Shown one piece after another: positions 51,379-52,544 of a stretch of DNA of 64,000 nucleotides. Where the stretch lies: contig OZ024753.1 in assembly GCA_964016885.1 (NCBI GenBank), positions 372,001 through 436,000 on the forward strand, read 5' to 3'. Source of the DNA: Eledone cirrhosa. Taxonomy: Eukaryota. Numbering within the stretch: position 1 is the first letter of the stretch; the number at the start of each line of letters is the position of its first letter. The notes below the pieces were generated by a model. The model searched no databases. It saw nothing but the letters and a program-made list of their open reading frames with translations, and was not told the origin of the DNA. The translations under genes and the position numbers were made by a program.

Positions 51379-51380
<2 letters not shown>

Positions 51381-52534
51381 TAATTTAATATATCAACTAA
51401 CATAAGCGCACAGATGCACGCCCATGCTAGCAAATACACAGGTTATGTCATAGTACCTAGGTGGTTCAATGCAGGAGAATGCAGAACAATAATATAAAAG
51501 ACGTAAAATAAGAAAATATTTTTCAAAAAAATTTTTTAAAAATTTTTTACTTACTTACTTAAATTTTCACTCCAACTAATTAGTTTCTGCAATGGGATAA
51601 AGACAGTTACGTAATCCAACTGTCGAGAATTCATTGCGTCATCAGGGAGTCTATTCTCAGTTAAGTCTCCAGGCAATGCGCGGACACTGGCGGCTCATAT
51701 AAAAATAATAATAATTCGGTAGATCGAACAGCTGGCGAGGACTGGATTCTATGTACCGAAATTCTCACTGCTTCAGGTCAAATGGCCGATTCTAAAGAAT
51801 CAATCACGTGACACAGAGGCTAGTTAGAAGGAATGGGATGGTAAGATGACTGACGCCTACTAACACCCCCAAAAAAATTTTTTTAGAAGTGGTTTTGGCA
51901 AGTTTGCTCGACAAATCAGTGATTTGGAGATAAATATAGATAATTTAATATATCAACTAACATAAGCGCACAGATGCACGCCCATGCTAGCAAATACACA
52001 GGTTATGTCATAGTACCTAGGTGGTTCAATGCAGGAGAATGCAGAACAATAATATAAAAGACGTAAAATAAGAAAATATTTTTCAAAAAAATTTTTTAAA
52101 AATTTTTTACTTACTTAAATTTTCACTCCAACTAATTAGTTTCTGCAATGGGATAAAGACAGTTACGTAATCCAACTGTCGAGAATTCATTGCGTCATCA
52201 GGGAGTCTATTCTCAGTTAAGTCTCCAGGCAATGCGCGGACACTGGCGGCTCATTTGACCTGAAGCAGTGAGAATTTCGGTACATAGAATCCAGTCCTCG
52301 CCAGCTGTTCGATCTACCGAATTATTATTATTTTTATATGAGCCGCCAGTGTCCGCGCATTGCCTGGAGACTTAACTGAGAATAGACTCCCTGATGACGC
52401 AATGAATTCTCGACAGTTGGATTACGTAACTGTCTTTATCCCATTGCAGAAACTAATTAGTTGGAGTGAAAATTTAAGTAAGTAAGTAAAAAATTTTTTA
52501 AAAATTTTTTTGAAAAATATTTTCTTATTTTACG

Positions 52535-52544
<10 letters not shown>
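51379..52544. mobile_element. Family A HHR element: 560-nt monomer, partial tandem plus inverted copy
   Basis: 51379-51938, direct repeat 51939-52254, inverted segment 52252-52544; HHRs at 51569-51650(-), 52125-52206(-) and 52386-52467(+). Confidence 0.9.
52386..52467 (+). ncRNA. Type I hammerhead ribozyme (family A)
   Basis: ACTCC-CTGATGA-C-GCAATG[GACAGTT/AACTGTC hairpin]CATTGC-A-GAAA-CTAATTAG-TT-GGAGT. Confidence 0.85.

What the first reader, a model, noticed from the sequence alone, without database searches (positions are those of the whole stretch)
51379..52544. Family A: 560-nt tandem monomer with a hammerhead, same architecture as B but unrelated sequence
Monomer 51379-51938, partial repeat to 52254, then an inversion using a 3-nt CAT microhomology and running to the TA array. 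Three identical HHRs: stem I ACUCC/GGAGU, stem II GCAAUG/CAUUGC extended by a 7-bp hairpin, palindromic stem III ACUAAUUAGU. The C-A pair at 10.1/11.1 and the GUU site are unusual. The same layout in adjacent but unrelated families points to one integration mechanism (template-switching reverse transcription of a circular or multimeric RNA).
Basis: partly seen in the sequence, partly recalled or inferred. Interest (0 to 1): 0.85.

Follow-up and report, generated by a model that had tools for sequence, protein, structure and literature searches.

The report
Two-armed Penelope-type hammerhead retrozyme
This is one of thousands of young copies of a protein-free jumping repeat with a hammerhead ribozyme motif; its back-to-back arms end at two fixed points, one per arm, which likely marks how Penelope-type enzymes paste such RNAs into DNA.

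Summary
In detail: a 560-nt unit, a partial unit, an inverted arm joined at CAT, and three identical type I hammerheads, all inside TA arrays. It is not a read artefact. The family has about 4,500 hammerhead copies in this 3-Gb animal genome. C·A and GUU are consensus (206 and 204 of 211 copies), and stem II covaries. Copies end at two fixed sites 113 nt apart. In 72 of 72 scorable head-to-head insertions (A, its subfamilies, B), one arm ends at each site. The arms share a haplotype, and some are not contained in each other, which argues for two primings on one RNA rather than a template switch. Coding Neptune elements here show the same ends. A and B are not unrelated: they share the 150-nt end module, as does a third family. 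Verdict: a new member of the animal non-LTR retrozymes (non-autonomous Penelope-like elements), with an unusually long tail. Not shown: cleavage, expression, circular RNA, the partner element. This scan already reported the two-armed pattern for other families of this genome.

The parts
49192..51378 (.). (TA)n target array left of the insertion, itself holding short nested pieces of other hammerhead elements (49844-49925, 50223-50505)
51379..51938 (-). Complete 560-nt unit of family A; its 3' end at 51379 is terminus E2, joined to TA
51379..51491 (-). 113-nt tail between termini E1 (51492) and E2 (51379); holds TTGTTCTG..CATTGAACCAC shared with B and a third family, and a long hairpin
51569..51650 (-). 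Type I hammerhead 1; predicted cut after GUU between 51574 and 51573, 82 nt upstream of E1
51939..52254 (-). 5'-truncated unit (positions 241-560), inner end of the E2 arm
52125..52206 (-). Type I hammerhead 2, identical
52252..52254 (.). CAT microhomology, head-to-head join of the two arms
52252..52544 (+). Inverted arm (about positions 155-447), ending at terminus E1 in TA
52386..52467 (+). Type I hammerhead 3, identical
52545..52628 (.). (TA)n array right of the insertion
52629..53987 (.). Neighbouring family B insertion (483-nt unit): E2 end at 52629, E1 end at 53987, cut site 80 nt upstream of E1, tail 112 nt; shares the end module with A

Best explanation
Family A is a dispersed, non-coding 560-nt tandem repeat with one type I hammerhead motif per unit, and it is likely a non-autonomous Penelope-like element (non-LTR retrozyme) copied by a Neptune-type enzyme. 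Shown: insertions lie in (TA)n; arms end at two fixed sites, E1 and E2, 82 and 195 nt downstream of the predicted cut; head-to-head insertions carry one E1 arm and one E2 arm; both arms and all units of an insertion share one haplotype; arms are often joined at 2-5 nt microhomologies. Inferred: a GIY-YIG/RT dimer binds the tail module, nicks both strands of the TA array, and each 3' end primes reverse transcription at its own RNA site, helped by TA-like letters at both sites; the two cDNAs then anneal by microhomology (twin priming). Inferred: the hammerhead cuts as a dimer through the 12-nt palindrome and makes monomers. Untested: whether the template is a circle or an uncut multimer; I lean to the circle at about 55:45.
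For: Fixed ends and pairing: 22 of 22 (39 best-matching A loci), 29 of 29 (57 loci from the first 100 anchor hits on C1, unselected for layout) and 21 of 21 (29 B loci) head-to-head insertions with both ends at a fixed site are E1+E2; 10 more inverted insertions had an end elsewhere or at the edge and were not scored. 141 of 144 such ends run into (TA)4. Neither arm contains the other in 5 of 7 two-piece insertions. Opposite arms differ by 0.66%, tandem units by 0.59%, other insertions by 1.79%; lower in 26 of 27 A insertions and 18 of 20 B insertions; 33 inherited minor alleles in both arms against about 7.5 expected. Microhomology of 2 nt or more in 21 of 34 clean joins against 17.6% by chance. 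Coding Neptune elements in this genome, some with open frames of 844-1096 aa, show hammerhead, two TA-joined ends, and a short plus a long end in 10 of 10 scorable pairs. Stem II changes on both sides across eight subfamily units while core, C.A, GUU and palindrome stay fixed. The purified anole element extends both strands and starts at two internal sites that bound the tail (PMC11167929, parts 1-2 of 4 read).
Against: No coding element with A's end module was found: five Neptune families score no better than shuffles, a profile of the module finds only A-like insertions in 50 GIY-YIG loci, and two further pattern scans gave only another non-coding family. The tail (113 nt) is three times the published 30-40 nt and longer than those of the Neptune families seen here (about 20-65 nt). 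183 of 215 arms read through a predicted cut site, so cut linear monomers are not the usual template; only 3 of 213 5' ends lie exactly at the cut. 16 of 50 joins carry extra letters rather than microhomology. Shared haplotypes could also come from gene conversion, and long arrays show patterns of local expansion (L063, L057). 14 inherited minor alleles sit in one arm only. The monomer does not fold stem III in the minimum-energy structure.
Confidence: 0.75

Rival explanations
1. One priming, then a template switch or fold-back onto the nascent cDNA or an antisense RNA makes the inverted arm (the first reader's idea; close to the self-priming on an antisense template proposed in PMC3846280).
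For: Arms share a haplotype, some joins are near-palindromic (L212, L193, L250), and microhomologies are enriched.
Against: In 5 of 7 two-piece insertions the E1 arm reaches further 5' than the E2 arm while lacking the tail, so neither can be copied from the other. It gives no reason for 72 of 72 E1+E2 pairs, and single-arm insertions end at both sites about equally (21 E1, 23 E2).
Confidence: 0.12
2. A Penelope-mobilised repeat whose hammerhead is no longer needed: uncut multimer transcripts are the template and arrays grow by unequal crossover.
For: Most arms read through the cut site; ribozyme mutants of the anole element still insert in vitro (PMC11167929); 8 of 9 frog retrozyme dimers did not cleave (bioRxiv 10.64898/2026.07.22.740005); long arrays show local duplication patterns.
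Against: Core, GUU and palindrome are kept and stem II covaries across subfamilies 68-97% alike. 5' ends are enriched just 3' of the cut: 29 in 0..+19 against 10 and 8 in the flanking 20-nt bins, although a stall at the structure would give the same.
Confidence: 0.25
3. The inversion is a chimeric-read or assembly artefact in an ordinary satellite.
For: No contig of four independent runs bridged this exact join, which proves nothing either way.
Against: 72 distinct joins on many chromosomes follow one rule, flanks are not mirrored, arms are unequal in length and end.
Confidence: 0.02

Closest known systems
Metazoan non-LTR retrozymes (Cervera and de la Pena 2020, PMC7229834, parts 2-4 of 6 read; Li, Clavereau and Pollet 2026, bioRxiv 10.64898/2026.07.22.740005, parts 1-3 of 5 read)
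   Same: Non-coding tandem units with one type I hammerhead each, weak palindromic helix III that implies dimer cleavage, mismatch at the base of helix II (U.U in axolotl HHR_Amex2), coexistence with Penelope-like elements.
   Different: Unit of 560 nt (150-450 nt in the 2020 paper, within the 51-972 nt of the 2026 preprint); C.A rather than U.U; 39-nt loop II with an inner hairpin; GUU site. The parts read propose Penelope mobilisation but describe no fixed ends or two-armed insertions. Cleavage and circles are shown there, not here.
EN+ Penelope-like elements, Neptune clade (Craig et al. 2021, PMC8557442, passages; Frangieh et al. 2024, PMC11167929, parts 1-2 of 4; Arkhipova et al. 2013, PMC3846280, passages)
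   Same: [quoted passage not shown]
   Different: No ORF; tail of 113 nt rather than 30-40; the one-end rule is strict here (72 of 72); no sequence match to a coding family found.
LINE-1 twin priming (Ostertag and Kazazian 2001; recalled, not read)
   Same: Two target strands prime separately and the cDNAs join by microhomology, giving a head-to-head inversion.
   Different: L1 uses the poly(A) end plus a random internal site and the arms barely overlap; here both sites are fixed, there is no poly(A), and arms overlap by hundreds of bases.

Membership tests
Metazoan non-LTR retrozyme | Tandem units, each with a type I hammerhead core and stems | tested here: met
   core CUGA(U/C)GA in 199, GAAA in 204 of 211 copies; stem II covaries
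Metazoan non-LTR retrozyme | No coding capacity | tested here: met
   no frame of 100 aa or more inside 51379-52544 other than TA-array read-through
Metazoan non-LTR retrozyme | Dispersed, high copy number, monomers to multimers | tested here: met
   4,532 exact hammerhead-half matches (control 0); arrays of 1 to 12 or more units
Metazoan non-LTR retrozyme | Self-cleavage, usually as a dimer | not testable with these tools
   only predicted: co-fold pairs two copies through the 12-nt palindrome
Metazoan non-LTR retrozyme | Expressed as linear and circular monomers | not testable with these tools
   no raw RNA reads were available
Metazoan non-LTR retrozyme | Loop 1-loop 2 tertiary contact of canonical hammerheads | not tested
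   loop II is extended by a hairpin; contact not examined
Non-autonomous EN+ Penelope-like element | Two alternative 3' ends bounding a tail, tail at one end only | tested here: met
   tail 113 nt, longer than published
Non-autonomous EN+ Penelope-like element | Inverted 5'-truncated copy next to a partial tandem | tested here: met
   82 inverted of 133 insertions scored; 36 of 60 in the unselected set
Non-autonomous EN+ Penelope-like element | Microsatellite target | tested here: met
   141 of 144 ends; target-site duplications cannot be read in TA
Non-autonomous EN+ Penelope-like element | 3' end or pLTR shared with a coding Penelope-like family | tested here: inconclusive
   no match in 50 GIY-YIG loci of 10,595 candidates; same layout but no shared sequence
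LINE-1-type twin-primed insertion | Poly(A) 3' end and non-overlapping arms | tested here: not met
   fixed non-A ends, overlapping arms

The most novel reading that the evidence does not exclude
A clade of ribozyme RNA circles (A and its subfamilies, B, a 457/467-nt family) carries one conserved 110-nt loading module on which a Penelope-type dimer docks asymmetrically, one active site at each end of the tail, and copies the same circle in two rolling-circle reactions from the two strands of a TA break. The strict one-E1, one-E2 rule would then be the genomic proof of the Penelope integration mechanism, and the module a portable tag for double-ended insertion; its coding partner may be a Neptune family not yet found, or the module may have outlived it.
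Probability: 0.35. Interest if true: 0.72.

Novelty: new member of a known kind. Interest (0 to 1): 0.48.

Why it matters
How retrozymes are copied into genomes, and why Penelope elements leave inverted copies with a tail at one end, are open questions in the papers read. This family gives exact predictions: two start sites 82 and 195 nt after the cut, one per strand, on one RNA haplotype. They can be tested with the existing in vitro Penelope assay, using intact Neptune frames from the same genome. The conserved C.A pair and GUU site also define a natural hammerhead variant worth a kinetic test. The element itself is a new family of a known class, and this scan has seen the layout in sister families.

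Tried and rejected
Rfam: no hammerhead model matches, whole window or 51379-53987. RNA: no RNA holder listed; nothing laid from the two guessed RNA runs; no verdict on expression. This exact join was not bridged by contigs of four runs; no verdict. Partner search: GIY-YIG scan, 50 loci, five Neptune families, two relaxed patterns, no coding element with the module. A seeming likeness of one Neptune 3' UTR to A/B did not beat shuffles. The microhomology count was faulty and was redone on 50 of the 72 joins (single switch, arms at least 94% like the reference, seed found). Circle versus multimer: inherited alleles are mostly fixed across units (82 fixed, 34 in some units), which fits both. A sharp pile of 5' ends at the cut was not seen. 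The broken Penelope-type frame at 47223-48566 has a different RT motif from the Neptune families and was not linked to A. Paper searches for twin priming with Penelope and tail listed no paper that states the strict one-end rule; subscription papers and all supplements were not seen and may hold it. Relative rates for GUU were not found in the passages read.

Full report
Observation. The window is G000:C13:372001-436000 of a 3.0-Gb animal assembly. Between TA arrays lie a 560-nt unit (51379-51938), a 316-nt partial copy (51939-52254) and an inverted arm to 52544. The join has an exact CAT microhomology. Three 82-nt hammerhead motifs are identical, two on the minus strand and one on the plus strand: stem I ACUCC/GGAGU, core CUGAUGA, C.A at 10.1/11.1, stem II GCAAUG/CAUUGC with an inner hairpin, GAAA, a 12-nt palindrome, GUU. 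Rfam does not detect them.

The family. The unit gave 154 matches at 88-100% identity from 39 scored of 2,042 candidates. An exact 19-nt piece of the ribozyme occurs 4,532 times (control 0), and a looser anchor that includes subfamilies 14,231 times (control 2). Units from 57 loci fall into eight groups 68-97% like A. Stem II changes on both sides between subfamilies (GCAAUG/CAUUGC, GAAAGG/CCUUUC, GGAAUG/CAUUCC, GUAAGG/CCUUAC), so the fold is under selection. One copy does not form stem III in the minimum-energy fold; two copies pair through the palindrome, as described for dimeric animal hammerheads (PMC4209133, passages).

Two fixed ends, one per arm. Copies end at unit position 447 (E1) or 560 (E2), both TA-like and 113 nt apart. 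Of 82 head-to-head insertions, 72 have both outer ends at a fixed site, and all 72 pair E1 with E2: 22 in the best-matching A loci, 29 in loci taken in chromosome order, 21 in B; the other 10 have an end elsewhere or at the edge of the fetched DNA. The first and third sets were chosen for holding a whole unit; the second was not. Single-arm insertions end at E1 21 times and at E2 23 times. All 72 joins differ, and 141 of 144 outer ends run into TA. This excludes a read artefact as the general cause.

A and B are related where it counts. B has a 483-nt unit, its cut 80 nt before E1 and a 112-nt tail. A and B align over the 150 nt after the ribozyme far above shuffles and not in their 5' halves. 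Their shared motif occurs 9,962 times (control 1) and leads to a third family of 457/467 nt with a U.U mismatch. I read this module as the signal for the copying enzyme (inference).

How the inversion forms. In 5 of 7 insertions made of two short arms, the E1 arm holds sequence absent from the E2 arm and the E2 arm holds the tail, so neither is a fold-back copy of the other. Yet the arms share one haplotype: 0.66% difference between arms, 0.59% between tandem units, 1.79% between insertions, and 33 inherited minor alleles in both arms against about 7.5 expected, with 14 in one arm only. Clean joins carry 2 nt or more of microhomology in 21 of 34 cases against 17.6% by chance; 16 of 50 joins carry extra letters. 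The simplest model is two primings, one from each nicked strand, at two sites of one RNA, followed by annealing of the cDNAs. Gene conversion could add to the shared haplotypes.

Which enzyme. The genome holds many Neptune-type Penelope elements, some with open frames of 844-1096 aa (the clade name rests on the recalled cysteine linker). They show a minimal hammerhead, two TA-joined ends and, in 10 of 10 scorable opposed pairs (two look like one duplicated segment), a short and a long end. The anole Poseidon protein extends both strands, is predicted to be a dimer and starts at two internal sites that bound the tail (PMC11167929). [quoted passage not shown] No coding family with A's module was found, so the partner is inferred from layout alone.

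What the ribozyme does. 183 of 215 arms read through a cut site, so the template is a circle or an uncut multimer. 5' ends are about threefold enriched in the 20 nt after the cut (29 against 10 and 8), which fits some cut templates or a stall at the structure. No RNA data were available. No A>G bias was seen.

Verdict. A new family of animal non-LTR retrozymes, a class proposed to be non-autonomous Penelope derivatives (PMC7229834; bioRxiv 10.64898/2026.07.22.740005). Its value lies in the strict E1+E2 rule, the shared module and the long tail, which make the copying step testable. I reached this reading before the look-up of earlier notes, which shows the same layout reported for other families of this genome; those notes are not evidence here.

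Noticed in passing
window 47223-48566 (+): 5'-truncated Penelope-type frame, RT (RVT_1, E 4e-11) then GIY-YIG (E 1e-4), broken by stops between the two parts; not linked to family A.
   Followed up: partly
window 56270-56770 and 49844-49925: A further hammerhead family (CUGAUGA, U.U mismatch, 14-nt helix III region); at 56270-56770 two copies stand head to head around a 180-nt dispersed repeat.
   Followed up: no
window 46430-46472 (-), 24766-24808 (-), 58189-58227 (-): Minimal hammerheads with 4-nt palindromic loop III; the one at 58.2 kb is the motif of a coding Neptune family.
   Followed up: partly
window 50223-50505: 283-nt piece between TA runs that continues a hammerhead-bearing element seen in L163.
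   Followed up: partly
L257-L281: Third family, 457/467-nt units, 453 pattern hits, sharing the E1/tail module with A and B.
   Followed up: partly
L217, L218, L222, L233: Coding Neptune families carry hammerheads with U3-A8 in place of C3-G8 (UUGAAAA, UUGAUAA) and a CCGG loop.
   Followed up: partly
window about 51805-51812; unit positions about 125-135: A palindromic TCACGTGA box is kept in most A subfamilies and could be part of an internal promoter; not tested.
   Followed up: no
window 46951-47135 and about 20 other places: Abundant 180-nt SINE-like repeat, 73-95% identity.
   Followed up: no
L057, L063: Long A arrays (12 or more units) show repeating variant patterns, a sign of local expansion after insertion.
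   Followed up: partly
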